Shown in pieces: positions 1,189 through 51,906 of a stretch of DNA of 64,000 nucleotides (positions are counted from its first letter, which is position 1; every line of letters begins with the position of its first letter). Under the pieces are notes generated by a model. That model was not told the origin of the DNA. It saw only the letters and a program-made list of their open reading frames with translations, and searched no databases. The DNA comes from an uncultured Bacteroidales bacterium (GTDB lineage Bacteria > Bacteroidota > Bacteroidia > Bacteroidales > UBA4417): positions 1,807 through 65,806 of the forward strand of contig CAJAXK010000057.1 of assembly GCA_903946925.1 (NCBI GenBank). Direction: 5' to 3'. Both the position numbers and the translations under genes were made by a program.

Positions 1189-4100
1189 TCAAGGCTTTTT
1201 CACCACCACAAACCCGGCAGCATTGTTGTCGGCCATAACAAGGTCGAAAGCATCCACAATTCCATCGCCATTTACGTCGGTGGTGAGATATCCTATTGTA
1301 AAACCTACGGCAGTGGTTTGTATGGATGTTTGGTCAAGGGCATTTACAGCACCATCCTGATTAACATCCCCACAATAAATTAGAAAAACTGTTCCTTTTT
1401 GTTTCAGGTTGTTTCCATAGGCCGCTGTAACAGTTGTACTAAAATTGTAGCTTACTGTACTACCGGCAAAAGAAACCGGTGCTGCCGACCAGGTTTGTAT
1501 GCTGTTGCGGTGTTTTACCACAATATAATAGTTTGCGCTTAATGTACCTGGTATGCTTAAAGATGCAGTTCCATCGGTATTCAAGTTAGCAATATATGGA
1601 CCACCGGCAAGTGCATAAGGCGTGGTTGAGTTGTGCAATTCCACAGTAATTTGGTCAGCAATGGTACCTGAATATTGGTTGCCAACCCCATTTTGGGCTT
1701 TATTCATTGTACTTCCGGCGGTTACAGGGTACAATCCTTCGAGGAATACGTTAAGGTTAAGCGTTTTGGTAGGTAGGGCTGTAACGGTAATAGTATAATC
1801 TTCCACTTCTCCCCATACAGCAGTGCCACAAGGCGAAGTGGCTTCATTGGTATAATGAATCCGAATCCTCATCCTTTTTGAGCCAATAGATGCATTTGCA
1901 GGGCAAGCAATTGTTGCCGAAAAAGGTCCAGGGGTTCCTGTAACAACAATTGCCTGATCGTCTGAAAAATCACCATTGCTGTTCCAGTCCACCCAAATAC
2001 CACAGCGGTCTCCTGTATAAAGTATCCCATTTGAAACAGTAATAGGTACCGATGCCCCTTGTACAATACTTGTTAACAAACTTGTGTAATTAGCATAACC
2101 GCCGGATGAACAAGTGCTAGAATTACTAATTGTACCAATCACAACGTCAGAAATATATTCGTCACAAGTAATTCCATTAGCGGAACAATAGCTAACCAAT
2201 ATTTGTCTATTCCCGGCAGGATTGGTAACCGTCGGCGTTTTAGCTGTTCCCACAGTTAACGAGGTGCATTGTGCATCCAAAGAGTTGTTTAAAACAGCAC
2301 TTTCTGGTACATCATAAGCCAGCCAAAAATAATTTGTCCCACCACTCAAAATCTGGGTTCCTGTAATGGTGAAAGTGCCATTGGGTGAAACAGAAGTGGC
2401 TCCAAATTGAGTTGTAGTAGCAAAAGCATTGCTAGTTCCTGTAAAATACAATTTTGAATTTGTAATATCGGTTACAGGACTTGTAGAGCCAGTTGTATTA
2501 AAAGTAAATGAAGTAGCACTTAAAGGTGTCAAATCACCATTTGTAACAATTTGGATACTAATAATTTCTTGGTTTACCTGATTTGGGGCAACAGATGAAA
2601 TATTGTTTTGGGTTACCGTACTCGAAACATAAGTCATTGCCGTTGACGAATAATAGACAAGAGATTCCCAAAGGCCCCTGCCGAAAGTTGCAGCCCTTAA
2701 CTTGCTTTGTTGAGGATTTGATGCATAATAGATTTCCAATTCGCCTATTTGGACATTAGGTAAACCCGTGTTATAAGCAGCCCAATTATCAGTGCCCTTT
2801 TTAAAATATACACCTAATTCGGTTCCAACATACAATTGTACTTCGGAAGCCGATTGTTTGTTTTGCACAATAGTATAAGCCGGAAGCTGCGGTAAACCTG
2901 CAGAAATATTTGTCCAAGAAGTGCCAGCGTTTATTGATTGATAAACCGTTGAAGCAGAATAACCACTTAAGGTTACCCAAAGTGTATTTGCATCATTGTT
3001 TTTTACAGCAATGTAGGTAATGCTGCCTGAACCTACTGGTAAACTGCCAGTTATAATGGACCAAGAAGCACCTCCATTCGTAGTTTTCCATATTGTTGAT
3101 TGATCAGCTACATAGATTACTTGTGTATTTGAAGGCGCAATTGCCATTGAACGGATTAAATTTGATGTGTTCATGGTGGAAATTTGTGTCCAGTTAGTTC
3201 CCCTGTCAACAGTTTTCCACACATTGGCATATCCGGCATATAATATCATTGGATTGGTAGGATCAATTATGTATGGTGTTACCCATGCACCACTGCCAGC
3301 ACCGGATGGCTCAATTGCAGAAGAAGAAGCCCAATGATTTGTAGTTATATCAATTTGGCCGTTTGTATAAGTTCCATATTGAATATTTACATTCGTATAG
3401 TCAATCAAACATTCCATGCCATCGCCACCTTTCACGTCAGACCAGGTTCCTCCCGAAATAAGTTTGGTGCCGTTATCCTGCAAGCCAGTAATAACCTCAT
3501 TGGAAACTGTTTGCGAAACACCCAGCTTGTACATCTGACTGATAACCATTCCATTGGTTTTGTCAGTCCAGCTTGTTCCGTTGTTGGTCGAAATATAAAC
3601 GCCCCCATCGTTACATTCGAATAAATCGCCATTGTTTCTATAATTTAAGCTATGTTTATCGGCGTGAACCGCTTGGGCACCATAACCACCATACCAGTGG
3701 TTTACCAAAGCCCAACTTGTTCCACCATTAGTCGAACGCCAGGTATTTACACCACCAACCAAAAGGGTATTAGCATTTGATGGTGAAGCGGCAAGGCTCA
3801 AATCGTACCAGCCTTGTCCCCCATCATCACTTCCTGGAATACCATCGTACCATCCCAATAAATTTTTGGTAGTCCCAGCAAAAATTTGCGAATATGAAGA
3901 ACCACTGTTTATTGATTTATAAATCCCGTAAAGCCCACTAACTGAATTAACGGCCAGTGCATAAACCCAGGTTGGTTGATTTGCCGAAACAGCCAGTTCA
4001 ATTCTATAGGCATTTGCATCTATAAATGTCTGTGTCCAGGAAGTTCCGCCATTTGTTGACAAATAAATTGATCCACTTGTTGTTGATCCATAAAGAGTAT

Positions 4101-42490: not shown

Positions 42491-43048
42491 TTAAACGAGT
42501 TGGATTGAAAACACTTTCACATACAATGGACCTTCGCGGCGGAGTATGCTTTCGTAGAGTATGATTTCGGAAACACTTTCTTCCTGAATTTCAACCGTAT
42601 TGTATTTTCCGATGATTTGTTGAAAAAGCTGTTTGTCCTTCAGTTCTTTTATACGGCCAATGGTTAAATGAGGGACGAAATTCTGGCGGTCGCGCGGGTA
42701 TCCGCATGTTACGAGACGGGCAAACAGATTATTGGCCAACATTTCCAGTTCTTGGTTTTTTTCGATTCCAAACCACACCACTTTTGGGTCGTAACGGCTC
42801 CCGAAAATGCCGGTATTTGAAATATTAAGTGAAAAGGGCTTCGATTTTTTCAGCGATTCTTCCGTCGCCAACTTAATAGCAGGGATTAAATTTTCATCTG
42901 TTTCACCAAAAAATTTCAGTGTAAGGTGCATGTTTTCGGGTTCCACCCATTTGATACGCTCATGGCGTAGTGAAGAGGAAATTTCGTTGAATAGGCTGAT
43001 ATACCGGGCAGTGGGGTGGATTTTAATGGCTGCGAACAAACGTTTCAT
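42491..43048 (-). CDS. thpR: RNA 2',3'-cyclic phosphodiesterase (2H family, LigT/ThpR)
   Basis: 185 aa with two H-x-T/S-x motifs: HLTLKFFG and HLTIGR. Confidence 0.88.
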   Translation of the reverse strand: MKRLFAAIKIHPTARYISLFNEISSSLRHERIKWVEPENMHLTLKFFGETDENLIPAIKLATEESLKKSKPFSLNISNTGIFGSRYDPKVVWFGIEKNQELEMLANNLFARLVTCGYPRDRQNFVPHLTIGRIKELKDKQLFQQIIGKYNTVEIQEESVSEIILYESILRREGPLYVKVFSIQLV

Positions 43049-43107: not shown

Positions 43108-43181
43108 GGGGCGTTAGCTCAGTTGGCTAGAGTGTCAGACTGGCAGTCTGAAGGTCATGGGTTCGACTCCCATACGCTCCA
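43108..43181 (+). tRNA. tRNA-Ala (anticodon GGC)
   Basis: Hand-folded cloverleaf. Acceptor GGGGCGT/ACGCTCC has the G3:U70 Ala identity pair. D-stem is GCTC/GAGT. Anticodon stem TCAGA/TCTGA carries the loop CT-GGC-AG. T-arm is ATGGG-TTCGACT-CCCAT. Discriminator is A. CCA is not encoded. Confidence 0.92.
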
Positions 43182-43193
43182 CAACCAAGAAAG

Positions 43194-43543: not shown

Positions 43544-44245
43544 TTAAACAGAGATTACTTTATGTCCCTGTTCGTCAATGATGATTTTTTTTCCATCTAA
43601 CTGTGTAACCAGTGCAAAGCCATTGTAAAAAGGTTCAACTGCTAAATATCTTTGTTGGTAAATTTCGTTTCCGCTTATATCAATGTGATGCCAACCATAT
43701 TTATCCAAAGCAGTTGCAAAGTTTTTGTGAAAAACCCCAAGATCCAAAAAAGCTTTATTATTTAGAAAACTCCCCTTTGTGTCAATATGCCTGTATAGTC
43801 CGTCGTCTGCTTTTGCACAGGCATTACCATCTTTGAAATCGCCACAATAGATAAAACTGCCTGTGTATATTCTTTTTCCATCAAGGTCAATATGAAAATA
43901 CTTGTTGTCGTTGCCCCTTACTGAACATAGGTTTTCCTGATAATTGCCTGTCCAATTATATGATTGGTCATAAGCCTTTAAGCCTTTGTCTGTCAAGTGA
44001 AACCAATTGTCGGCTTTAACAACCGTAGCCCTGCTGCAATAATAGCCAAAAGTCCGAGTGAACCTTTCATCGTAAAGTTGATTACCAATACTGTTAATGT
44101 GATATGAACCGCTTTCATCTTTTACAGGAGCAAGTCCTGGCGAATGAAATTTTAAAACTTCAATAAACACACTTCCGAAAAGCGGTTGTTCATTAAATAG
44201 AAAATGTGTCTTGTCTGCTGATACTTTTATGTCTTGCCAATTCAT
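43544..44245 (-). CDS. WG-containing repeat protein
   Basis: 233 aa. Repeats are of the type YHINSIGNQLYDERF, YFHIDLDGKRIYTGSF, LYRHIDTKGSFLNNKAF and GWHHIDISGNEIYQQRY. A 4-nt overlap (ATGA) joins it to the upstream gene. Confidence 0.65.
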   Translation of the reverse strand: MNWQDIKVSADKTHFLFNEQPLFGSVFIEVLKFHSPGLAPVKDESGSYHINSIGNQLYDERFTRTFGYYCSRATVVKADNWFHLTDKGLKAYDQSYNWTGNYQENLCSVRGNDNKYFHIDLDGKRIYTGSFIYCGDFKDGNACAKADDGLYRHIDTKGSFLNNKAFLDLGVFHKNFATALDKYGWHHIDISGNEIYQQRYLAVEPFYNGFALVTQLDGKKIIIDEQGHKVISV

Positions 44246-45207
44246 TTTTTGAAAATTAGAATGGTTTGTAATTGATTTAACTTTTTGTCTTCTTGAAAAT
44301 TAAAACCGAATTCTTCACATAGTTTAATGTATTCAGTGGAACTGCGCTCAAAACTTTGGCACATTACAGCCATATTCAATGACAATAACCATAATTTGAT
44401 ATTAATTTTATCTGTGCAATTCTCAATAACATATAAAGTTCCATTAGAAGGTAATGCATGGAAGCAATTTTTAAGAATAAGTTTCGCTTTTTTATTATTC
44501 CAGTCGTGCAAAACTCTGGAAAGAATTATCGCTTCTGAACACTTGGGGATTCCCTCAAAGAAATTCCCACCTATTCTTTCAATAGTTTTGTATGAAACTT
44601 GTTTAATTACTTTATCTAAATCGAAAAGTACGCATCTTGCAGTATGATTTTTTTCTTTAATCAGATTTAACGCAGCACCATAGCCACCGCCAACGTCCAT
44701 TATTGACTGGTGAATGCTAAAATCGATAATGTTAGGAAGTTCTTTATAATCATCTATTGCATATTCTGACATTGCTTTATGATAATTCTTTAGTTTTTCA
44801 GGATTATCATTCAAATACTCGAAGTATGTTTTTTGGTAAATCTGTTCAAATGAGCTTTTACCTGATTGAATCGAACATTTAAGATGTTGCCATGCTATAA
44901 GGTGTTCGCCAGACCAATTTAAGCAAGCATAATACAGCCCCCCTTTATTTTCTTTTCTTAGGAGATTTCCCCTTTCTGTAAGCGTGTAATTATTATTTCC
45001 CAATTCGTTTATATAGTTATTTTCTGTTAGAAATTCGAGCAAATTCAACAAACTTTTTAAATCCCACTTGTTATTTTGTAATAATTTATCCAAACTGTTT
45101 TGCCCTTCAAATATTTTATCAAATAATTGTAACTGGCAAGCCGCATTTACAGCCAGGTATTTCCAATGTTCTGTGAACAAAGATTTTAGTTCTTTTTTCG
45201 CTTCCAT
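44242..45207 (-). CDS. class I SAM-dependent O-methyltransferase (COMT/Methyltransf_2 type with N-terminal dimerisation domain)
   Basis: 321 aa. Motif I is MDVGGGYGAALNL; also FDLDKVI and ILSRVLHDWNNKKAKLILKNCFHALPSNGTLYVIE. Confidence 0.85.
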   Translation of the reverse strand: MEAKKELKSLFTEHWKYLAVNAACQLQLFDKIFEGQNSLDKLLQNNKWDLKSLLNLLEFLTENNYINELGNNNYTLTERGNLLRKENKGGLYYACLNWSGEHLIAWQHLKCSIQSGKSSFEQIYQKTYFEYLNDNPEKLKNYHKAMSEYAIDDYKELPNIIDFSIHQSIMDVGGGYGAALNLIKEKNHTARCVLFDLDKVIKQVSYKTIERIGGNFFEGIPKCSEAIILSRVLHDWNNKKAKLILKNCFHALPSNGTLYVIENCTDKINIKLWLLSLNMAVMCQSFERSSTEYIKLCEEFGFNFQEDKKLNQLQTILIFKK

Positions 45208-45209
45208 GA

Positions 45210-46643
45210 TTAATCGAGTAATTTGTTTTTAAGAGATTCTATTTGACTCGCTGAAAGCCCACACCATTGCAAATAATTTTCAATCCCTCCTTTTTCCTTG
45301 ACGATGTCAAGAACCAAATTCAAACGATAAAGCTTTACGTCTACTTCACTTACCAGGTAATCTACTTGAATATCAGTGAGTGGTGTATCGGCAAGCAAAT
45401 GAAGCAGTGAAATAAAAATTCCTGTTCTGTCTTTTCCAGCAAAGCAATGAATGGCTACAGAACCGTTGCGCTCATTTAATATGGCTTCCATTGCAGTTTT
45501 GATTTTGTCCTTACACCCAATTGCAAAAAAGCGGTATGCGATTTCTTCATTTGTCCCTTGATGATGATTTTGTTTGAACCAATCGGGTTGGTTCCAGGGA
45601 TCGAGTTGTGCTTTTACATAGTTGAACTTAGATAGCGTTCGATCTAAATACGGCATTTCTTTAATTTCTTTTTCTGCTCTTAAATCAATTATTGTTTTTA
45701 TTCTTTTTTCTCTCAGCAATTTTTCAAAGTGAGATTCATCTTGAAAAAGAGTCAATGTTGCAGTTCTATATATTTTTCCGCTTTTTATTCTAGGATTGTG
45801 CGTGCAGATGTCTCGAAAGTTCCAAAAATAATCTCTGTCAAAAATCCATTCGCAAAACTGTTTTAGTTCAATAAACTTTTCATAGCTCACCAATGGTTGA
45901 ATTGCAATATAAAAGAAATCTAGTAATTTTCTTTTTTGCTGATTGGCTTCAGGCAAAAAAAGGGTTCCTTTTAAACCATAAAAAGAGTCTTGTTCTTCCT
46001 TGTTAATAACATTTGGAATAAAATATTTAGGCAAATAATGAAATTTGGTGTGTCCTTTTGAAGAATGTTTCAACTGAATGGCAACTTGTAAAGCAATGTT
46101 GTAGAAAAAATAAAATTGGTAACCATCACTTCTGCGGTGCATTCCCGAGCAACTTTCAAATTCGTATATGAATTTGTCAATCAATTCAGCAATTCCTTTT
46201 TCATTTTGGTGAGGAGTTTTATTTAGGTTATAATCTCTAACATGTTGATAGAGATAAGTTCCAATATTATACTTTGCTGGTCGTTTTTCAAATAGAATAG
46301 TGTCGGCTATGTTTGATATTTCAGAACTCAAATAATTTCTGTTAATCTCTGAAATGTGATTGCAAACAGCGAATTCTATTTTTGGTTGTGCTTTGAAATA
46401 AGCCACAACTTTATTTCGCAATGCAACCTCACGAATATCAACAAGTTCTTGCTGAAATTCATTTCGCAACGCTTCATTCAGAAATTTGGATTCAAATTCA
46501 CCATCAACCAAAAGTTGAATATCAATGTCTGAATTCGGCGTTGCCTCATTTCTTCCAAATGAACCATACAGAAGTGCAACATCTATACCTTTCACTTGCG
46601 GAAATAATTTTTGGAGCAGTACTATTGTTTGTAATTGTTTCAT
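45210..46643 (-). CDS. fusion protein: Pol-beta-superfamily (GlnD/GlnE-like) nucleotidyltransferase + tyrosine-phosphatase-family domain
   Basis: 477 aa. The N-terminal LLYGSFGRNEATPNSDIDIQLLV matches the G-S/G-x-G-R-x-E-x3-5-SDIDL NTase signature. The C-terminal NFRDI...YRTATL...IIDLRAEKE and AIHCFAGKDRTGIF fit the CX5R loop of the Y_phosphatase3 pattern. Confidence 0.8.
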   Translation of the reverse strand: MKQLQTIVLLQKLFPQVKGIDVALLYGSFGRNEATPNSDIDIQLLVDGEFESKFLNEALRNEFQQELVDIREVALRNKVVAYFKAQPKIEFAVCNHISEINRNYLSSEISNIADTILFEKRPAKYNIGTYLYQHVRDYNLNKTPHQNEKGIAELIDKFIYEFESCSGMHRRSDGYQFYFFYNIALQVAIQLKHSSKGHTKFHYLPKYFIPNVINKEEQDSFYGLKGTLFLPEANQQKRKLLDFFYIAIQPLVSYEKFIELKQFCEWIFDRDYFWNFRDICTHNPRIKSGKIYRTATLTLFQDESHFEKLLREKRIKTIIDLRAEKEIKEMPYLDRTLSKFNYVKAQLDPWNQPDWFKQNHHQGTNEEIAYRFFAIGCKDKIKTAMEAILNERNGSVAIHCFAGKDRTGIFISLLHLLADTPLTDIQVDYLVSEVDVKLYRLNLVLDIVKEKGGIENYLQWCGLSASQIESLKNKLLD

Positions 46644-48997
46644 AAAGATATTGGTTTGCGCATGTTACATGTTTTACATATTGGTTTCATTTTATATTTG
46701 CTTACCAGTTCCATATAAACAAAACCTTTTAAAACATCTTCAATCGATGTGGTTGAAATGTTTCCAAAGTCGCCTAAAGACTTTCTCAAATTGTCAGGCG
46801 CACAACATGGCGAGATATTCCCTGTTGCTGAAACCCAAAGTTCTTTTGTCAGAAAAGGGCACTCATATTCTTCGGGAAGTTCTTTAGTTTCATTGTCGTG
46901 AAGCGGAATAATGTTTTCTAAGATTACTTTTTCGCCGTTTGGTTTTCTAAATTTTTCCTGTGCATCAATAGCTTGCTTTACAAATACATTCCATTGCATT
47001 ACACTCTCTTGATTTGCTTTCATTGAGAGGTTTTTGATTTCCTCAAAATGTGCCCAAAGCTGATGTCCTTTTACCCTGTCAACACCAAGTGAAGCAGCCA
47101 ATTTTATAATCTCAGCCAACTCGTGCATGTTGTTTTGCATAAAAGTTAATTGAAATGTAACTCTACAGAAATATCCTGTTTTGGCAAAATGCTCATCACG
47201 GAATTTTATGAATGACTTAACATTTTCGATGGCTTGGTTAAAGTCAATTCCAATCATCACTTTTTGGGCTGTTTCTTCTGTTGCTCCGTTCCAGCTTATT
47301 TTTATATCTATAGTGTTTGGCACTATCAACTTTGCCCATTCTTGTACAGTTTTTTTAGGAAATGTCCCATTGGTAGTGAGATTGATTTTAATTTTTGTTT
47401 GCTCAGCCAATTCAAAAATTTTGTCAAACTCTTTGTATAGTAAGGGTTCTCCCATTGTGGAAGGTATGATTTCCTTTACTCCCAATTTTTCTGCCTGGTG
47501 AAAAACCTCTTCCACATCTGCAAATTTCATCCGTCTGCGTTTTACTCCGGTTTCCTTGAAAAGAGATGGAATAAATTTGCTGTATGGGCTGTGCTCCTCA
47601 CACATCACACATTTGAGGTTACAATCTTCCGGATTGGTATCAATGGTAATACGCCAGAGATTTTTTGAAGGGATAAATTGACGATATATTTTCTCCAATT
47701 CTTTGCAATGGTTATGAATATCAGGCACATTGCCATCTTCTGAATACAAATATCCTCTTTGCCCCAACCCTTTCATCAGGTTAGGGTTTTCAACAGCAAA
47801 CCTTAACTGCTCAGCCAAAGAATAGATGTTTCGATGTTCAAATAATAATCCGTTCAAATGGTGTTGAACATATTCTTTCATTCCTCCAAAATCAGCTGTT
47901 ATTACAGGCACTCTGCACGACTGTGCTTCATGAATTACCAATGGAGAGTTTTCGCCCCAAATGGAAGGAACCACTATGCAATCTACTTGTGAAAAAACTT
48001 CATCTGCTAAATTCTTGTTAATGTATTCCCCCTTGAACTGTATTGATAAATTGTATTCTCCGGCTATTTCCATCAGTGCTATAGTGCTTTGTTGAGCTTT
48101 TGATCCCCAAATTAAAAGTTCTGCATCACCCTCTAACTTTTTAAAAGCTTCAATCAATAAGTTGATTCCTTTGGATGGGACATGAGTGCCAATATATCCG
48201 AAGGTAAAATGTTTATTTCTTTTTCTGTTATAGGTTGGTGTCAAGTAATGGGTAGGGAAACCATAATCTAAATAGGTCAGTTTATTTTCTGGAACGTTAA
48301 ATTCTGCAATAAATCGATTTCTTAAATAGTGCGAAGGAGCAATGAACGCATCTACTTTATTTATTACTGACCGGGTTTCATCCATTCTGGCATCAATCCA
48401 ATTCTCCCAATATTGCTGATCATTTAATACATCTTTTCTACAAGGAATTTTATGCTCAAATTCATAGGAAAGCATATTATCAAAAGATGATGTATAACCG
48501 GAATGCAAAGGTTTATAACAAATACTTGCACATTTGCAGTTTTCCTGTTTATCACATAATTGCCAGACCTTTTCTCCATCCGAATTACGCTGTAAGAACT
48601 GGCCCCGTGGGCACATCAACCAAAAGTCATGAAGTGTAAATACAACCGGAATCTGCTTTCTGTTTAACTCATCAATAATACCAGTTGAAAGATGATTCAA
48701 ATGGCCAATATGGGCTATATCTGGTTTAATATTATCGAGTAGTTCAGCAAATTGACTGTCAATTTCCCTATGTCTGAAACCATCTTTGCCTTGGGCCATA
48801 TTCACAAAAAACAGAGTTAAATTCTCTTTTAATTTTTGTGTTCTGATTGTAAAATCAGGGGCATAAGGGTTCTCTTCGCGAGTAAAAACAAAAACTTCAT
48901 TTTCTTTTGATAATTCTTCGCAAATGGATTGGGTGTAAACTTCCGAACCAGCATTGTAGTTTGGTGGATAGCCGTGAATGATTTTGAGAATACGCAT
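46640..48997 (-). CDS. fusion protein: GT4-type glycosyltransferase + radical SAM/SPASM domain
   Basis: 785 aa. The N-terminal half (MRILKIIHGYPPNYNAGSEVY...; ENSPLVIHEAQSCRVPVITADFGGMKEYV) is GT-B / Glycos_transf_1-like. The C-terminal half has CNLKCVMC (CxxxCxxC), GEPLL, and a SPASM-like tail CPFLTKELWVSATGNISPCCAP...CKTCNM. A 4-nt overlap joins it to the downstream gene. Confidence 0.85.
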   Translation of the reverse strand: MRILKIIHGYPPNYNAGSEVYTQSICEELSKENEVFVFTREENPYAPDFTIRTQKLKENLTLFFVNMAQGKDGFRHREIDSQFAELLDNIKPDIAHIGHLNHLSTGIIDELNRKQIPVVFTLHDFWLMCPRGQFLQRNSDGEKVWQLCDKQENCKCASICYKPLHSGYTSSFDNMLSYEFEHKIPCRKDVLNDQQYWENWIDARMDETRSVINKVDAFIAPSHYLRNRFIAEFNVPENKLTYLDYGFPTHYLTPTYNRKRNKHFTFGYIGTHVPSKGINLLIEAFKKLEGDAELLIWGSKAQQSTIALMEIAGEYNLSIQFKGEYINKNLADEVFSQVDCIVVPSIWGENSPLVIHEAQSCRVPVITADFGGMKEYVQHHLNGLLFEHRNIYSLAEQLRFAVENPNLMKGLGQRGYLYSEDGNVPDIHNHCKELEKIYRQFIPSKNLWRITIDTNPEDCNLKCVMCEEHSPYSKFIPSLFKETGVKRRRMKFADVEEVFHQAEKLGVKEIIPSTMGEPLLYKEFDKIFELAEQTKIKINLTTNGTFPKKTVQEWAKLIVPNTIDIKISWNGATEETAQKVMIGIDFNQAIENVKSFIKFRDEHFAKTGYFCRVTFQLTFMQNNMHELAEIIKLAASLGVDRVKGHQLWAHFEEIKNLSMKANQESVMQWNVFVKQAIDAQEKFRKPNGEKVILENIIPLHDNETKELPEEYECPFLTKELWVSATGNISPCCAPDNLRKSLGDFGNISTTSIEDVLKGFVYMELVSKYKMKPICKTCNMRKPISL

Positions 48998-49026: not shown

Positions 49027-49048
49027 GGTTGGGGAGCGATCCCCAACC
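49027..49048 (-). promoter_or_regulatory. perfect 9-bp stem / 4-nt loop hairpin between the micro-ORF and the GT-rSAM gene
   Basis: ggttgggga-gcga-tccccaacc. It lies 2 nt after the micro-ORF stop and 29 nt before the 48997 start. No U-tract follows on the coding strand. Confidence 0.7.
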
Positions 49049-49050
49049 AA

Positions 49051-49146
49051 TTACTTCTTAGGTTTCGGAGGATTATTACCTCTACCACCGCCGGATGGTT
49101 TGCCAGTTGTGCTTGGAGCGTTTACTGGTTTCGTTGTTTTAGACAT
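49051..49146 (-). CDS. micro-ORF, 31 aa (candidate precursor peptide)
   Basis: Hand translation gives MSKTTKPVNAPSTTGKPSGGGRGNNPPKPKK*. The ATG is 3 nt after the stop of the preceding micro-ORF. It lies directly upstream of the rSAM/SPASM gene. Confidence 0.4.
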   Translation of the reverse strand: MSKTTKPVNAPSTTGKPSGGGRGNNPPKPKK

Positions 49147-49149
49147 TGA

Positions 49150-49227
49150 TTATCTATTATTGTGATGCCTCCTTTTTTGCGTTTCGGCTGCCGCACTATA
49201 AGTTTTATGGACTTCCAGTTGATCCAT
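49150..49227 (-). CDS. micro-ORF, 25 aa (candidate peptide)
   Basis: Hand translation gives MDQLEVHKTYSAAAETQKRRHHNNR*. The ATG is 1 nt after the TAG of 49229..49531. Confidence 0.3.
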   Translation of the reverse strand: MDQLEVHKTYSAAAETQKRRHHNNR

Positions 49228-49228
49228 T

Positions 49229-49531
49229 CTAATTAAGTATTTGGATAAAATAATTCTGTTTTTTTATAATATGAGTAAGTACATTTGAGAAAAATGCTCT
49301 TATAAGTTTACCGTTCTTCACGGTTAGACACAAGTTGGGCAGTTCCATGTTTTCGGGAAACGAAATTTTATTTCGTTTCATCCATTCATATCTTGCAATA
49401 ATGACAATGCTTTTTTGAAGATGTTTCTTCTTTGCAGAAGCCAATGCAACTTTGATTGCTTTTTGGTCGGGTGAAAACTTAACAGCTTTACATTCATTGT
49501 TTGAACTAATTGAAAATTTTGTTGTGTCCAT
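49229..49531 (-). CDS. hypothetical 100-aa protein (paralogue of 49639..49941)
   Basis: ORF-track entry. Its C-terminal NLCLTVKNGKLIRAFF...YFIQILN resembles ETCLVLIVKKNLILRGYW...HFQILYK in the neighbour. No family recognised. Confidence 0.55.
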   Translation of the reverse strand: MDTTKFSISSNNECKAVKFSPDQKAIKVALASAKKKHLQKSIVIIARYEWMKRNKISFPENMELPNLCLTVKNGKLIRAFFSNVLTHIIKKQNYFIQILN

Positions 49532-49638: not shown

Positions 49639-49941
49639 TCATTTGTACAAGATTTGAAAGTGAGCATTCTTTTCCTTGCTGAACAAATAGCTGATATGGT
49701 CGCACCAGTAGCCTCTTAGAATCAGATTCTTCTTAACGATAAGGACTAGACAAGTTTCATCATCCCTGGCCACCCCTTTCCTTTTCAAGAAGGAAGGCAA
49801 CACAAGCACAATATCTTTTTCGCATTCGGAGCATTCTACATATGGTAGGATTTTGTTGAGTATTTGGTCGTCAATACTTCTATCCCATTGGCTAAACATA
49901 AAGTGGGTTGTTTTCCTAAACTCTAAAATCTGTTTATTCAT
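49639..49941 (-). CDS. hypothetical 100-aa protein, first gene of the divergent operon
   Basis: ORF-track entry. The TTHFMFSQWDRSIDDQILNKIL segment is loosely reminiscent of DUF4258/RelE-like small proteins; I am not confident in that resemblance. Confidence 0.55.
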   Translation of the reverse strand: MNKQILEFRKTTHFMFSQWDRSIDDQILNKILPYVECSECEKDIVLVLPSFLKRKGVARDDETCLVLIVKKNLILRGYWCDHISYLFSKEKNAHFQILYK

Positions 49942-49965: not shown

Positions 49966-49983
49966 AGACATAAAGTGTGCCAA
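49966..49983 (-). promoter_or_regulatory. candidate sigma54 (-24/-12) promoter, strong -24 and weak -12
   Basis: The minus strand reads TTGGCAC-ACTTT-ATGTC. The -24 TTGGCAC is perfect, but -12 is ATGT instead of TTGC. It lies ~25 nt upstream of the 49941 ATG, facing away from the sigma54-activator gene. Confidence 0.35.
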
Positions 49984-50079: not shown

Positions 50080-51906
50080 ATGAAAAATATTTATATAACC
50101 TGGCATTATACAACCCACGGTGTTGCATACTTAAAGCACATTCTTAGCCAATTCTACCTAATTCGAGAACTTCCAATTGAAATTAATTTTAGTCAGTTAG
50201 AGCAAGAAGAACTTAATTCAACTTTTAACAGTCCTAAATCAACAGGATTTCTTTTTGACGAGATAATTTATCTAACTGCACCACAAAAGGCATTTGATGG
50301 AGTTTCAAGCAGGAGATTCAGTCATAGAACAACTGTTTTGGATGATCCTGAAATTAAAAAAAGTAAATTGGGAATAGTATATCATGAACTTATCGAAATT
50401 TATCCAGAACATAAGCTGTCTGAGGAAATCAGTTTTATAGAAAACAACTATCCCGACCTGCTATCAGAGTACAAAGAATTGGTGTGGCGTAACATTCAGC
50501 ATTATCCAGTTGAAGAACAGATTAAGTGGTTAACAGAATATTCAAACTTTAAAAATGTATATTCTAATAAATTTAAGGTTGTTGAATTAAAGATTGATGA
50601 CTTTAGAAATGAAAAGCAAATTTCAGATGTAATAAGTAGATGGATTAGACATTACTTTTTCAGGCAAAAGAATTGTCGGCCAATAATTAATGTTTCACTT
50701 GGAAGTAATGAAACGCAAGTGGTATGGCATATACTGGCAGAAGCAGGCCAGTTGCCTGACACTACAAGATTTATTAAAACATATGATGATAAAAATGATA
50801 AGCCTGAAAAACGATTTAAGCAATTTTCAATTCAAGAAATTGCAACTAATCTAATTTCTACGATTGGAGCTGAGTTCAAGATATACGATGACACAAAATC
50901 ACCTTCTCGGGCTTTGGCTAATAAAAAAATGGAAACCTATCTTAAATTGGGTTTTTCGATTTTGCTAATTGGGGAAAGAGGAATCGGAAAATCAAAAATT
51001 GCTAGCGAAGCAAAGCAAAAGTTTGATCCCCAAAGTCCTTTCGTAGAAGCAAATTGCGCCTCATTTGATGAAGATAGTAAAGCAGAATCGGAGTTGTTTG
51101 GGTATGAAAAAGGAGCATTTACCGGAGCTAACGCTGTAAAAATAGGTCTTTTAGAAGCAGCAAATGGCGGTATTCTGTTTCTTGATGAAATTCATCATTT
51201 ATCAAAGCTTGTTCAGGCTAAACTAATGAAGGCATTGCAGACTGATAAGAAAAACAAAATGGCCATCCGGAGAATAGGCAGTAATAAAGAGATCAAAGTT
51301 GAATGCCGATTAATTTTTGCAACTAATAAAAGTATTGTTGAATTAAGAAATGAATTACTGCCCGATTTTTACGATAGAATTGTACAGTATGTTGTAAACA
51401 TCCCACCGATAAGAAACAATATTAAAGATAGGCCGTCTGATTGGGAAAAAGTTTGGAGTGATTTGAATTTAAAAGGGATGGATGGAAAATGGCTACGAGA
51501 ACCTCCTGATGATGAAAAATTGAATGAATGGCTATTAACTCTCCCATTGTATGGGAATTACAGAGATTTGCAAAAAATAGCCATCAGTTATCATGCTTTT
51601 AATCATTTTGACATGGAAACAAAGGGTATGTTGATTGAGGCCAATGCTTTCCAGTATGCAAAAAATGAATTTGAAAAATATCACTCACTTGTAGTCCAAC
51701 CTGAAAATGAGAAATTCAATTTCAATAACAGCCAAACAACAAAAGAAATGTTAGCTGACTATTTATTTGAATTGCAAAATTGGGCTGTGTTGAATTATAA
51801 ATCACGAAAAGCTGCAATAGAACATTTTCGGTTATTGGGAGATACAGTTGCTCCTGAAACCTTTAATAACTGGAAGAATAGGGATTCTGTAAAAAAGAAA
51901 AAATAG
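50080..51906 (+). CDS. sigma54-dependent transcriptional activator with an RtcR-like (CARF-like) N-terminal domain
   Basis: 608 aa. The AAA+ core has LLIGERGIGKS (Walker A), FGYEKGAFTGA (the GAFTGA sigma54-contact loop) and GGILFLDEIHHL (Walker B). The ~290-aa N-domain contains INVSLGSNETQVVWHILAEAGQLP, which parallels IHITTGTHVAQICWFLLAEARYLP of E. coli RtcR as I recall it. Confidence 0.75.
   Translation: MKNIYITWHYTTHGVAYLKHILSQFYLIRELPIEINFSQLEQEELNSTFNSPKSTGFLFDEIIYLTAPQKAFDGVSSRRFSHRTTVLDDPEIKKSKLGIVYHELIEIYPEHKLSEEISFIENNYPDLLSEYKELVWRNIQHYPVEEQIKWLTEYSNFKNVYSNKFKVVELKIDDFRNEKQISDVISRWIRHYFFRQKNCRPIINVSLGSNETQVVWHILAEAGQLPDTTRFIKTYDDKNDKPEKRFKQFSIQEIATNLISTIGAEFKIYDDTKSPSRALANKKMETYLKLGFSILLIGERGIGKSKIASEAKQKFDPQSPFVEANCASFDEDSKAESELFGYEKGAFTGANAVKIGLLEAANGGILFLDEIHHLSKLVQAKLMKALQTDKKNKMAIRRIGSNKEIKVECRLIFATNKSIVELRNELLPDFYDRIVQYVVNIPPIRNNIKDRPSDWEKVWSDLNLKGMDGKWLREPPDDEKLNEWLLTLPLYGNYRDLQKIAISYHAFNHFDMETKGMLIEANAFQYAKNEFEKYHSLVVQPENEKFNFNNSQTTKEMLADYLFELQNWAVLNYKSRKAAIEHFRLLGDTVAPETFNNWKNRDSVKKKK

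What the first reader, a model, noticed from the sequence alone, without database searches (positions are those of the whole stretch)
49027..49227. Two chained micro-ORFs plus a hairpin immediately upstream of the radical SAM/SPASM gene: candidate precursor peptides
Seen in sequence (below the ORF-track cutoff):
- 49227..49150 encodes MDQLEVHKTYSAAAETQKRRHHNNR. Its ATG is 1 nt after the TAG of the upstream gene.
- 49146..49051 encodes MSKTTKPVNAPSTTGKPSGGGRGNNPPKPKK. Its ATG is 3 nt after the first micro-ORF's TAA.
- Two nt later comes a perfect 9-bp hairpin (49027..49048) with no U-tract, then 29 nt to the GT-rSAM start.

Established: SPASM-type radical SAM maturases (PqqE, MftC, AlbA-type) act on short peptides that are often encoded just upstream. 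A hairpin between the precursor and enzyme genes is a common device to raise the precursor-to-enzyme ratio. The mycofactocin pathway likewise combines a ~30-aa peptide with an rSAM/SPASM enzyme, a glycosyltransferase and a methyltransferase.

Inference: one or both micro-ORFs are substrates.

Caveats:
- Neither peptide has Cys.
- The 31-mer has no aromatic residue.
- The 25-mer's LEVHKTY only loosely recalls the E-x3-Y core of PqqA, and the spacing differs.
Basis: partly seen in the sequence, partly recalled or inferred. Interest (0 to 1): 0.72.

Follow-up and report, generated by a model that had tools for sequence, protein, structure and literature searches.

The report
Micro-protein gene with structured RNA leader
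Only the 31-codon ORF is a real gene, a member of a widespread, unnamed micro-protein family; the 25-codon "ORF" is a folded RNA leader and the hairpin is the small gene's own terminator, so nothing here points to precursor peptides for the neighbouring radical SAM enzyme.

Summary

- **31-mer (49146..49051, minus strand):** a real gene. Its 19-residue core, N-x-PSTTGKPSGGGRGNNPP, is nearly invariant in several hundred small proteins. These come from contigs of 23-67% GC and from phage contigs. Third codon positions vary freely.
- **25-mer:** not a gene. It overlaps a conserved, covarying RNA of about 68 nt (49230..49163). The 3' half of homologous copies matches Rfam DUF805b. The 25-mer's ATG is one arm of a pseudoknot stem. 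Relatives lose the ATG or shift the frame.
- **Hairpin:** it follows micro-protein genes of this family in every kind of genomic context, so it is their terminator.
- **Linkage to the enzyme:** weak in both directions. About 23 of 80 orthologous glycosyltransferase-radical SAM loci carry such a micro-gene. Only 1 of 36 micro-gene loci with 2.5 kb or more of downstream sequence carries that enzyme.
- **Other partners:** the leader-plus-micro-gene cassette also sits next to true prokaryotic viperins and next to an NYN/DnaJ/vWA cluster.
- **Recognition domain:** neither 100-aa protein shows an RRE-like fold.

The precursor-peptide reading is therefore not supported. The micro-protein's function is unknown.

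The parts
49163..49230 (-). Structured 5' leader RNA of about 68 nt. It overlaps the whole 25-codon ORF, which is not a gene. Proposed helices in window coordinates: pseudoknot A, 49227-49224 (AUGG) with 49210-49207 (CCAU); P1, 49218-49212 with 49202-49196; P2, 49195-49192 (UGCG) with 49181-49178 (CGCA); pseudoknot B, 49188-49186 (GCC) with 49169-49167 (GGC).
   Evidence: An nhmmer model built without the window sequence finds one hit in the 64 kb: 49228-49164 (-), E = 1.9e-11. Covariance model R1 scores 69.6 bits at 49163-49230. On 17 distinct sequences, 84.5% of cells pair, against 20-40% when the partners are slid. Twelve of 18 pairs carry compensatory changes, and 0 of 500 shuffles reach this. 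RNAalifold recovers both pseudoknot helices independently. The 3' half of homologous copies hits Rfam RF02914 DUF805b: L092 41.4 bits (gathering score 35.6), L040 35.4, L042 and L091 34.5. The window copy itself is not reported by Rfam.
49150..49227 (-). The 25-codon ORF (MDQLEVHKTYSAAAETQKRRHHNNR). Judged not to be a gene.
   Evidence: Its ATG is the 5' arm of pseudoknot A. In homologous elements the ATG is replaced by ACG, CTG or TTG (L107, L091, L104). The frame from that ATG ends after 7-34 codons, and the peptides fall into unrelated frames. No tblastn hit outside the window.
49051..49146 (-). The 31-codon micro-protein gene (MSKTTKPVNAPSTTGKPSGGGRGNNPPKPKK), here called micA. It belongs to a family with the invariant core N-x-PS-T-TG-K-PSG-G-GRGNNPP.
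   Evidence: 530 proteins at E <= 1 in the 5.8-billion-sequence set. 258 clusters at 50% identity with E <= 0.001 among 1.84 billion representatives. More than 433 metagenome hits. 84 distinct DNA sequences encode the core, with entropy of 0.26, 0.25 and 1.61 bits at codon positions 1, 2 and 3. Synonymous changes outnumber non-synonymous ones against same-length orthologues. No match in Pfam, NCBIfam or the PDB. No gene with exactly this product is on record in the public collection searched.
49027..49048 (-). Perfect 9-bp stem with a 4-nt loop, 2 nt after the micA stop codon. The micro-gene's own terminator or attenuator.
   Evidence: Orthologues have hairpins of different sequence at the same place, mostly followed by T runs.
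49229..49531 (-). 100-aa protein 'P100A'. Context gene, not an RRE.
   Evidence: AlphaFold2 pLDDT 81.6. Topology H-E-H-E-E-H-E. No PDB fold match with E < 0.1. No Pfam or NCBIfam hit.
49639..49941 (-). 100-aa protein 'P100B'. Context gene with the same predicted topology as P100A. Its N-terminal motif resembles that of a 96-aa protein, found in the same slot in other loci, that scores weakly on DUF4258.
   Evidence: pLDDT 82.5, no PDB match. hhalign of P100B against P100A gives E = 0.057 over the C-terminal 56 columns. The 96-aa analogue in the same slot in Algibacter loci hits DUF4258 at E = 0.002, below the curated cut-off. The motif resemblance itself is by eye.
46640..48997 (-). 785-aa fusion of a GT4 glycosyltransferase with a radical SAM domain and a truncated SPASM/twitch-type C-terminus.
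   Evidence: Pfam Glycos_transf_1, Glyco_transf_4, Radical_SAM and SPASM, with a weak GT4-conflict hit. All NCBIfam hits fall far below their cut-offs. Weak pVip hit at E = 9e-9.
50080..51906 (+). Divergently encoded sigma-54 activator related to RtcR, probably the operon's regulator. The N-terminal CARF domain is implied only by the name of the matching PADLOC model.
   Evidence: PADLOC model RtcR_PspF1--CARF_AAA_HTH, E = 1.2e-76. Pfam Sigma54_activat, E = 4.7e-39. Found upstream in about half of the 80 loci.
43544..46643 (-). Rest of the operon: nucleotidyltransferase + tyrosine-phosphatase fusion (45210-46643), O-methyltransferase (44242-45207) and WG-repeat protein (43544-44245).
   Evidence: The WG-repeat gene accompanies the GT-rSAM gene in nearly all loci that extend far enough downstream; the other two are optional.

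Best explanation
The 200 bases are a self-contained small-gene cassette with three parts.
1. A structured 5' leader RNA of about 68 nt, with two short helices and two pseudoknot contacts. The 3' half of homologous copies matches the Rfam DUF805b class.
2. A 31-codon gene for a basic micro-protein rich in Gly, Pro and Asn.
3. That gene's own stem-loop terminator.

**Shown**
- The 25-codon ORF is only a frame running through the leader.
- The micro-protein belongs to a large, unannotated family with a nearly invariant 19-residue core.
- That core is encoded alone, in tandem, or as the C-terminal tail of other domains, in many phyla and in phage contigs.
- The leader accompanies the micro-gene in a subset of contexts. 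In every case where the downstream sequence was examined, the cassette sits beside a GT-rSAM gene, a true viperin, or an NYN/DnaJ/vWA cluster.

**Inferred**
- In this window the cassette is an accessory module inserted between a 100-aa gene and the GT-rSAM gene, in an operon controlled by an RtcR-like sigma-54 activator.
- The leader controls translation or stability of the micro-protein mRNA in response to an unknown signal.
- The terminator lets only part of the transcripts continue into the enzyme genes.
- The peptide acts in trans, through its invariant core, on a cellular component conserved across phyla. The translation apparatus or nucleic acid is my guess.
- The peptide is not matured into a natural product by the neighbouring enzyme.
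For: **Coding status of the 31-mer**
- synonymous changes dominate, including AGG/CGT arginine swaps in the related micB genes.
- The family is large, and the core is invariant across contigs of 23-67% GC.

**Non-coding status of the 25-mer:**

**Leader**
- Found by a model that excludes the window.
- Covariation is shown.
- Each strong hit is the only one in its locus and lies directly 5' of micA or micB.

**Terminator:**

**Independence from the GT-rSAM gene**
- About 23 of 80 GT-rSAM loci carry micA or micB.
- Only 1 of 36 micA loci has the enzyme.
- The next downstream gene is co-directional in 25 loci and convergent in 22.

**Other partners of the same cassette**
- Viperins in L104 and L158: NCBIfam viperin_w_prok at 325 and 324 bits, cut-off 180.
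- An NYN/DnaJ/vWA cluster in L103, read by eye from the translations.

**Core as a C-terminal tail**
- After an alanine-rich segment that matches Pfam Ifi-6-16 and, weakly, SMP; after beta-grasp-like and other domains; and in tandem.
Against: - No expression data of any kind are available.
- The window's own leader copy is not reported by Rfam DUF805b. Membership of that family rests on homologous copies.
- The helices are short (3-7 bp). The middle of P1 pairs poorly in many sequences: 69% of cells.
- The peptide's target is a guess.
- micA or micB lie directly upstream of GT-rSAM in about a quarter of orthologous loci, far above chance. Some functional tie to the enzyme, including modification, therefore remains possible.
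- The metagenome sample was the 80 best hits to a profile, so it is not an unbiased census.
- The window hairpin lacks a proper U tract on the coding strand.
Confidence: 0.6

Rival explanations
1. The 31-mer, or the unrelated micB peptide in other loci, is a ribosomally made substrate of the adjacent GT4-radical SAM enzyme. It would be glycosylated on the PSTTG serine or threonines, or modified by the radical SAM domain. The hairpin would raise the peptide-to-enzyme ratio.
For: - micA or micB lie immediately 5' of the enzyme gene in about 23 of 80 loci, each followed by a hairpin.
- The core carries invariant Ser and Thr residues.
- The enzyme has the CX3CX2C motif and a SPASM-type C-terminus.
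- Radical SAM epimerases show that Cys or aromatic residues are not required (general knowledge).
Against: - About 57 of 80 enzyme loci have no such gene within the fetched flanks.
- 35 of 36 micA loci lack the enzyme.
- The identical core occurs in phage contigs, beside type I restriction-modification genes, beside viperins, and as a tail on other domains.
- micA and micB, which occupy the same slot, are not detectably homologous: hhalign E = 0.19.
- No RRE fold was found in either 100-aa protein, and the enzyme's N-terminus is a GT4 domain.
- The operon has no protease or exporter.
- The radical SAM domain's nearest families include enzymes that act on nucleotides (MoaA, viperin), and all hits are far below cut-off.
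Confidence: 0.12
2. In this operon the micro-ORF acts mainly in cis as a sensor upstream ORF. The terminator stem starts 2 nt after the stop codon. A ribosome that pauses at the Pro- and Lys-rich end of the ORF, or at its stop codon, would block the stem and allow read-through into the GT-rSAM genes when translation is disturbed.
For: - In leader-type loci the hairpin begins 1-7 nt after the stop codon: window 2, L087 3, L107 2, L104 2, L158 1.
- The peptide sequence is conserved across phyla, as expected for something that interacts with the ribosome.
- The operon is controlled by an RtcR-like regulator, a class tied to RNA and translation damage (general knowledge).
Against: - In half of the family's loci the next gene is convergent, so there is nothing downstream to regulate.
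- The core also ends larger proteins and occurs in tandem.
- A terminator close to the stop codon is common for any small gene.
- There is no stalling evidence.
Confidence: 0.13
3. The micro-protein is a small stress hydrophilin of the LEA or seed-maturation-protein type. It would protect macromolecules non-specifically and would be co-induced with the operon.
For: - The same slot in L063 holds a 50-aa protein that matches Pfam SMP at E = 2.9e-7, above the gathering score.
- Several family members carry the core after an alanine-rich N-terminal segment. That segment matches Pfam Ifi-6-16 above threshold and SMP only weakly, E = 0.26.
- The composition is fully hydrophilic.
Against: - Bulk protectants do not usually keep a 19-residue sequence invariant across phyla.
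- The occurrence in phage contigs and defence islands is not explained.
Confidence: 0.12

Closest known systems
Rfam RF02914, DUF805b RNA motif (clan CL00115), a candidate cis-regulatory RNA of Bacteroidota with unknown function
   Same: - A short stem of 3-4 bp enclosing a conserved 12-nt loop, GGAAGCCGAAAA, followed by AGAGUAGGC.
- Homologous copies score 41.4, 35.4, 34.5 and 34.5 bits against a gathering score of 35.6.
- The element lies 5' of a gene on the same strand.
   Different: - The element here has an additional 5' domain: a covarying hairpin whose conserved loop pairs with an upstream AUGG.
- It also has a covarying 3-bp contact between the DUF805b loop (GCC) and the downstream GGC, which the Rfam model does not annotate.
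- The gene it precedes is an unannotated micro-ORF, not a DUF805 membrane protein.
- The window copy is diverged and is not reported by Rfam.
RiPP precursor plus radical SAM/SPASM maturase systems (PqqA/PqqE, MftA/MftC, sactipeptides, YydF/YydG)
   Same: A short ORF directly upstream of a radical SAM enzyme with a SPASM-type C-terminus, with a hairpin between them.
   Different: - Peptide and enzyme do not reliably co-occur.
- No RRE, protease or transporter is present.
- The peptide has no Cys or aromatic residue.
- The peptide is conserved across phyla and contexts.
- The SPASM motif is truncated: CX12GX4C followed by CX2C only, read from the translation.
Prokaryotic viperin (pVip) antiviral operons
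   Same: - The same cassette of 100-aa protein, leader and micA flanks true viperins in L104 and L158.
- The window enzyme's radical SAM domain gives a weak pVip match, E = 9e-9.
- The gene set has a defence-like flavour: GT4-conflict, nucleotidyltransferase and phosphatase domains.
   Different: - The window enzyme does not reach any viperin family threshold.
- It is fused to a glycosyltransferase and ends in a SPASM-type region.
- No antiviral role has been tested.
RtcR-controlled RNA-repair operons (rtcBA)
   Same: A divergent sigma-54 activator that matches RtcR-type models whose names include a CARF domain.
   Different: - No RtcA or RtcB is present. The cargo is the GT-rSAM enzyme, a WG-repeat protein, a nucleotidyltransferase-phosphatase and a methyltransferase.
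- The regulator scores far below the RtcR equivalog cut-off: 145 against 650 bits.

Membership tests
RiPP precursor / radical SAM-SPASM maturase pair | The precursor gene consistently accompanies the maturase gene | tested here: not met
   micA or micB occur in about 23 of 80 GT-rSAM loci. GT-rSAM occurs in 1 of 36 micA loci with 2.5 kb or more downstream.
RiPP precursor / radical SAM-SPASM maturase pair | An RRE (PqqD-like) peptide-recognition domain, in the enzyme or as a separate small protein | tested here: not met
   The enzyme's N-terminus is a GT4 domain. The P100A and P100B models (pLDDT 81.6 and 82.5) have H-E-H-E-E-H-E topology and no PDB match better than E = 0.14. The WG-repeat protein was not modelled.
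RiPP precursor / radical SAM-SPASM maturase pair | A full seven-Cys SPASM motif binding two auxiliary clusters | tested here: inconclusive
   Pfam SPASM hit at E = 1.2e-8. The sequence shows CX12GX4C followed only by CX2C before the protein ends, which looks like a twitch or partial SPASM.
RiPP precursor / radical SAM-SPASM maturase pair | A leader/core layout with a processing protease or exporter in the cluster | tested here: not met
   No peptidase or transporter domain in the operon. Conservation covers the whole C-terminal two thirds of the peptide.
PQQ (PqqA) and mycofactocin (MftA) precursors | The E-x3-Y core (PqqA) or a C-terminal Gly-Val-Tyr (MftA) | tested here: not met
   The LEVHKTY string lies in the non-coding 25-mer frame and is not conserved. 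The 31-mer has no Tyr.
Rfam DUF805b RNA (RF02914) | Score at or above the curated gathering score of 35.6 bits | tested here: inconclusive
   The window copy is not reported, even at E <= 10 on a 101-nt stretch. Homologous copies score 41.4 (L092), 35.4 (L040), 34.5, 34.5, 30.3 and 30.1 bits. The window copy is tied to these by nhmmer at E = 1.9e-11.
Rfam DUF805b RNA (RF02914) | A short stem closing a conserved purine-rich loop containing GCCGAAA, then a conserved AG(A)GUAGGC | tested here: met
   The window has UGCG / GCAGCCGAAA / CGCA and then AAGGAGGC. The stem pairs in 87% of cells, with one compensatory pair.
Intrinsic (Rho-independent) terminator | A GC-rich stem-loop followed by a U tract on the transcribed strand | tested here: inconclusive
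   The stem has 9 bp, 6 of them G-C. On the minus strand the tail is CUUUCC, and the scan scored the site on the plus strand only. Orthologues have T5-T6 tails. A T-rich tail occurs in 42 of 79 family loci against 16 of 415 controls.
micA micro-protein family (defined here) | The core N-x-P-S-[TQK]-T-G-x-P-S-G-x-G-R-G-N-N-P-P near the C-terminus, followed by a Lys/Arg-rich end | tested here: met
   The window peptide carries every invariant residue of alignment A2. It scores E = 6.8e-17 against the family profile, which includes the window sequence itself.
Prokaryotic viperin (for the 785-aa enzyme) | Score above the NCBIfam viperin_w_prok cut-off of 180 bits | tested here: not met
   No viperin family appears among the 25 best NCBIfam hits shown (53 families matched in all). 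PADLOC pVip scores only 33 bits. The L104 and L158 neighbours score 325 and 324 bits.

The most novel reading that the evidence does not exclude
The leader-plus-micro-gene cassette may be a previously undescribed regulatory or effector module of anti-phage and stress operons built around radical SAM enzymes (viperins and the GT-rSAM fusion).
- The extended DUF805b-type RNA would be a ligand- or protein-responsive switch, possibly sensing the enzyme's nucleotide-derived product.
- The micro-protein's invariant 19-residue core would be a portable C-terminal module that docks onto a universally conserved target such as the ribosome or nucleic acid.
- Bacteria and phages alike would use this module, alone or fused to beta-grasp-like and other domains.
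Probability: 0.2. Interest if true: 0.8.

Novelty: new variant of a known kind. Interest (0 to 1): 0.55.

Why it matters
- **Annotation.** It removes a tempting but unsupported natural-product annotation.
- **A missed protein family.** It points to a micro-protein family of several hundred members. Pfam, NCBIfam and the PDB give no match, and no gene with exactly the window's product is on record in the public collection searched. The core sequence is unusually invariant across phyla and in phage contigs.
- **A first genetic context for DUF805b.** The motif has no known function. Here it gains a concrete setting: it heads a micro-gene inside operons that carry viperins or a related radical SAM fusion. 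It also appears to have extra structure, a 5' domain and a loop-to-3' contact.
- **Testability.** Both the peptide and the RNA are small, and both could be studied directly by experiment.

Tried and rejected
- **Canonical sigma-54 promoter in the leader.** The GG-N10-GC spacing is present, but the flanks do not fit TGGCAC-N5-TTGC. A promoter would not show compensatory changes. Rejected.
- **Known RNA families.** A gathering-threshold scan of the whole window found only tRNA-Ala. Permissive scans of the window region gave only noise.
- **Family libraries.** Pfam, NCBIfam and PADLOC gave nothing for either micro-ORF or either 100-aa protein.
- **PDB sequence search with the peptide profile.** Only a chance hit at E = 0.42.
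- **tblastn of the peptide against plasmid and phage records.** No match, probably because of the low-complexity filter. A pattern-based scan of viral contigs did find 11 loci.
- **Literature.** Searches for the motif strings, DUF805b, RtcR with radical SAM, and viperin with RtcR returned nothing relevant.
- **Homology of micA and micB.** Not supported: hhalign E = 0.19.
- **Homology of P100A and P100B.** Only weak: E = 0.057, with the same predicted topology.
- **General role as a regulatory upstream ORF.** Rejected as the family-wide function, because downstream genes are convergent in about half of the loci.
- **Exact-sequence look-up of the 31-mer.** No gene with exactly this product is on record.
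Full report
**1. The observation**

On the minus strand the sequence reads as follows:
- TAG, the stop of a 100-aa gene;
- 1 nt;
- ATG of a 25-codon ORF (49227..49150);
- TAA, then 3 nt;
- ATG of a 31-codon ORF (49146..49051);
- TAA, then 2 nt;
- a perfect 9-bp hairpin (49048..49027);
- 29 nt;
- ATG of a 785-aa gene (48997..46640).

Short ORFs are common here: 24 ORFs of 20 aa or more overlap 1.2 kb. Only comparison with other sequences can tell which ones are real.

**2. Surroundings**

- The 785-aa protein is a GT4 glycosyltransferase fused to a radical SAM domain with a SPASM-type end. All curated family hits fall far below their cut-offs.
- Downstream lie three genes: a nucleotidyltransferase + tyrosine-phosphatase fusion, an O-methyltransferase and a WG-repeat protein.
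- Upstream lie two 100-aa proteins, here called P100A and P100B.
- Divergently encoded is a sigma-54 activator related to RtcR (PADLOC RtcR_PspF1--CARF_AAA_HTH, E = 1.2e-76).

**3. Orthologous loci**

A scan of one genome per species returned 80 loci with orthologues of the fusion enzyme (49-75% identity), mostly Bacteroidota.
- The WG-repeat gene accompanies the enzyme in nearly all loci that extend far enough downstream. The nucleotidyltransferase-phosphatase and the methyltransferase come and go.
- The slot just upstream of the enzyme is variable. It can hold:
  - P100A;
  - P100B;
  - a 96-aa protein with a weak DUF4258 match (E = 0.002);
  - a 50-aa protein matching Pfam SMP (E = 2.9e-7);
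  - one of two micro-ORF types.
- Type 'micA' resembles the window's 31-mer (...GxxGNNPPKPKK). Type 'micB' is a 42-47-aa peptide (...DKNQGNRGKQLNPNQ...).
- Together they occur in about 23 of the 80 loci.
- They are not detectably homologous to each other (hhalign E = 0.19).

**4. The 31-mer is a real gene of a large family**

- A profile of six micA peptides found 530 proteins at E <= 1 among 5.8 billion. Most are 29-45 aa, and none has a Pfam domain or an informative name.
- An exhaustive profile search of 1.84 billion cluster representatives gave 258 clusters at E <= 0.001. The match lies at or near the C-terminal end of nearly every protein.
- The core N-[AG]-P-S-T-T-G-K-P-S-G-G-G-R-G-N-N-P-P is almost invariant.
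- A metagenome scan found more than 433 relatives. The 80 that were fetched come from contigs of 23% to 67% GC and carry the same core.
- Over 84 distinct DNA versions of the core, entropy is 0.26, 0.25 and 1.61 bits at codon positions 1, 2 and 3. These instances were selected by a peptide pattern, so positions 1 and 2 are constrained by the selection. The free third position is the informative part.
- Six same-length orthologues differ from the window gene at 17-29 of 96 nt. They show 10-15 synonymous against 4-7 non-synonymous codon changes.
- No gene with exactly this product is on record in the public collection searched.

**5. The 25-mer is not a gene but part of a structured RNA**

- The DNA under the 25-mer is conserved at the nucleotide level in 27 loci. 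It always lies directly 5' of micA or micB.
- A model built without the window sequence finds exactly one hit in the 64-kb window: 49228-49164, E = 1.9e-11.
- From the homologous ATG, the frame closes after 7 to 34 codons, and the peptides fall into different frames. Three full-length copies have ACG, CTG or TTG in place of ATG.

On 17 distinct sequences I propose four helices:

| Helix | Columns of alignment A3 | Window sequence or coordinates |
|---|---|---|
| Pseudoknot A | 5-8 with 22-25 | AUGG / CCAU; the ATG is one arm |
| P1 | 14-20 with 32-38 | 49218-49212 with 49202-49196 |
| P2 | 39-42 with 54-57 | UGCG / CGCA |
| Pseudoknot B | 47-49 with 69-71 | GCC / GGC |

- 84.5% of cells pair, against 20-40% when the 3' partners are slid by 1-3 columns.
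- Twelve of 18 pairs show a change on both sides.
- None of 500 shuffles reaches the observed values for four of the five measures; 41 of 500 reach the count of further pair types.
- Pseudoknot B pairs in 100% of cells, with GUC/GAC, ACU/GGU and GCU/AGC variants.
- RNAalifold recovers both pseudoknot helices on its own.
- P1 is the weakest helix, with 69% of cells paired.

The 3' half (P2, its loop and the following AGAGUAGGC) matches Rfam RF02914 DUF805b in homologous copies. Scores are 41.4 bits in L092, above the gathering score of 35.6; 35.4 in L040; 34.5 in L042 and L091; about 30 in L103 and L087. The window's diverged copy is not reported by Rfam.

A covariance model of the whole element gave strong hits (59-83 bits) in 23 loci. 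Each was the only strong hit in its locus and lay 5' of a micro-gene: 15 among the window plus the 80 enzyme loci, and 8 among the 94 other loci. A few scattered weak hits (14-24 bits) also appeared. Many of these sequences were used to build the model, so their scores are partly by construction.

**6. The hairpin belongs to the micro-gene**

- Hairpins of different sequence lie just after the stop codon in orthologues, usually with a T run.
- Across the family, 63 of 79 loci have a stem of 6 bp or more within 70 nt of the stop codon, against 82 of 415 random positions.
- 42 of 79 have a T-rich tail, against 16 of 415.
- In the window the tail on the coding strand is only CUUUCC. Termination may therefore be partial.

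**7. The peptide is not tied to the enzyme**

- Of 36 micA loci with at least 2.5 kb downstream, one carries the GT-rSAM gene.
- Three further loci on long contigs show none.
- The next downstream gene is co-directional in 25 loci and convergent in 22. The micro-gene is therefore a unit of its own, not generally an upstream ORF of something else.
- The core also occurs in these forms:
  - in tandem;
  - after Gly-rich stretches;
  - after an alanine-rich segment that matches Pfam Ifi-6-16 and, weakly, SMP;
  - after an 84-aa domain;
  - after one or two beta-grasp-like domains ending ...ATGSVKGN.
- In phage contigs the beta-grasp forms sit beside proteins that look, by eye, like E1/ThiF-type enzymes.
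- Some copies lie in what look like defence islands: GmrSD by Pfam and, by eye, type I restriction-modification genes.

**8. The cassette has other partners**

- In L104 and L158 the same P100 + leader + micA cassette flanks true prokaryotic viperins: NCBIfam viperin_w_prok at 325 and 324 bits (cut-off 180), and PADLOC pVip-kinase at E = 1e-134 and 4e-199.
- In L103 the leader and micA precede a cluster that reads by eye as an NYN-domain protein, a J-domain protein and a vWA-like protein.
- The leader is thus seen beside several different enzyme types, while micA itself ranges much further.

**9. Test of the RRE idea**

- P100B (pLDDT 82.5) and P100A (pLDDT 81.6) fold into the same helix-strand-helix-strand-strand-helix-strand pattern.
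- Neither has a PDB match better than E = 0.14, and nothing resembles PqqD.
- Their profiles align weakly over the C-terminal half (E = 0.057).
- By eye, P100B shares an N-terminal H-F-x6-R-x-I-D motif with the 96-aa protein that scores weakly on DUF4258.

**10. Conclusion**

- The finding is a three-part cassette: a leader RNA (DUF805b class with extra structure), a 31-codon micro-protein gene, and a terminator.
- The cassette sits in an operon controlled by an RtcR-like activator. The operon's enzymes look more like those of nucleotide-directed defence systems than like peptide maturases. That last point is inference, based on the viperin-linked sister cassettes and on weak MoaA and viperin similarity.
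- The precursor-peptide reading is not supported. Modification of the peptide by the enzyme cannot be excluded without mass spectrometry.
- What the micro-protein does is unknown. Invariance across phyla and phages suggests a specific, conserved binding partner.

Noticed in passing
L104:981-1889 and L158:1599-2990: True prokaryotic viperins (one fused to a kinase) lie next to the same cassette of 100-aa protein, leader RNA and micA. L104 also has a second P100B-like 108-aa gene at 1896-2222.
   Followed up: partly
L164-L168 (viral contigs), around 3500-4100: Phage contigs carry several beta-grasp-like small proteins ending ...ATGSVKGN. One per locus carries the micA core as a C-terminal extension. 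They lie next to a protein that looks by eye like an E1/ThiF-type enzyme (IGVGATGSWVG...).
   Followed up: partly
window 49966-49983 (minus strand), between the RtcR-like gene and P100B: A TTGGCAC motif, like a sigma-54 -24 element, lies about 45 nt upstream of the P100B start codon. GGCAC recurs at a similar place in at least 12 orthologous loci. The -12 element is not canonical.
   Followed up: partly
window 49229-49531 and 49639-49941: The two 100-aa proteins have no BLAST similarity. They share a predicted topology and a C-terminal (Y/H)-(F/Y)-x-Q-I-L-(N/Y) ending. In many loci their stop codon overlaps the GT-rSAM start codon.
   Followed up: partly
L016:7789-7989 and L076 (66-aa ORF after micB); L081:5826-5960: Very acidic small ORFs (for example ...DDELDDFYYQQDL...FEFDNFD) lie next to the basic micro-genes in some loci. 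They may be partner proteins.
   Followed up: no
L106, L108, L111, L120, L126, L130, L137, L141, L148, L160, L161: In contigs of about 50% GC, micA is convergent with an uncharacterised 418-434-aa protein that ends 12 nt away and shares the hairpin. In four of these loci what look by eye like type I restriction-modification genes are nearby. The 433-aa representative has no NCBIfam hit.
   Followed up: partly
L121, L131, L143: micB-like and micA genes occur in tandem, outside any visible GT-rSAM context.
   Followed up: no
L047:7840-7998: A 52-aa ORF (MNPNNNKPEQQKMLDNRAEQLNPTCEKYWLARGF...) lies between a micA-like gene with its hairpin and the GT-rSAM gene. It shares the N-R-x-x-Q-L-N-P string with micB.
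   Followed up: no
window 43108-43182 (+): tRNA-Ala (GGC) on the opposite strand. It separates the WG-repeat gene from a 185-aa ORF (42491-43048) that looks by eye like a 2'-5' RNA ligase (LigT); the one library tried on it, PADLOC, gave no hit.
   Followed up: no
L104:5249-5339 (-): TPP riboswitch, 70.1 bits. Unrelated to the finding.
   Followed up: no
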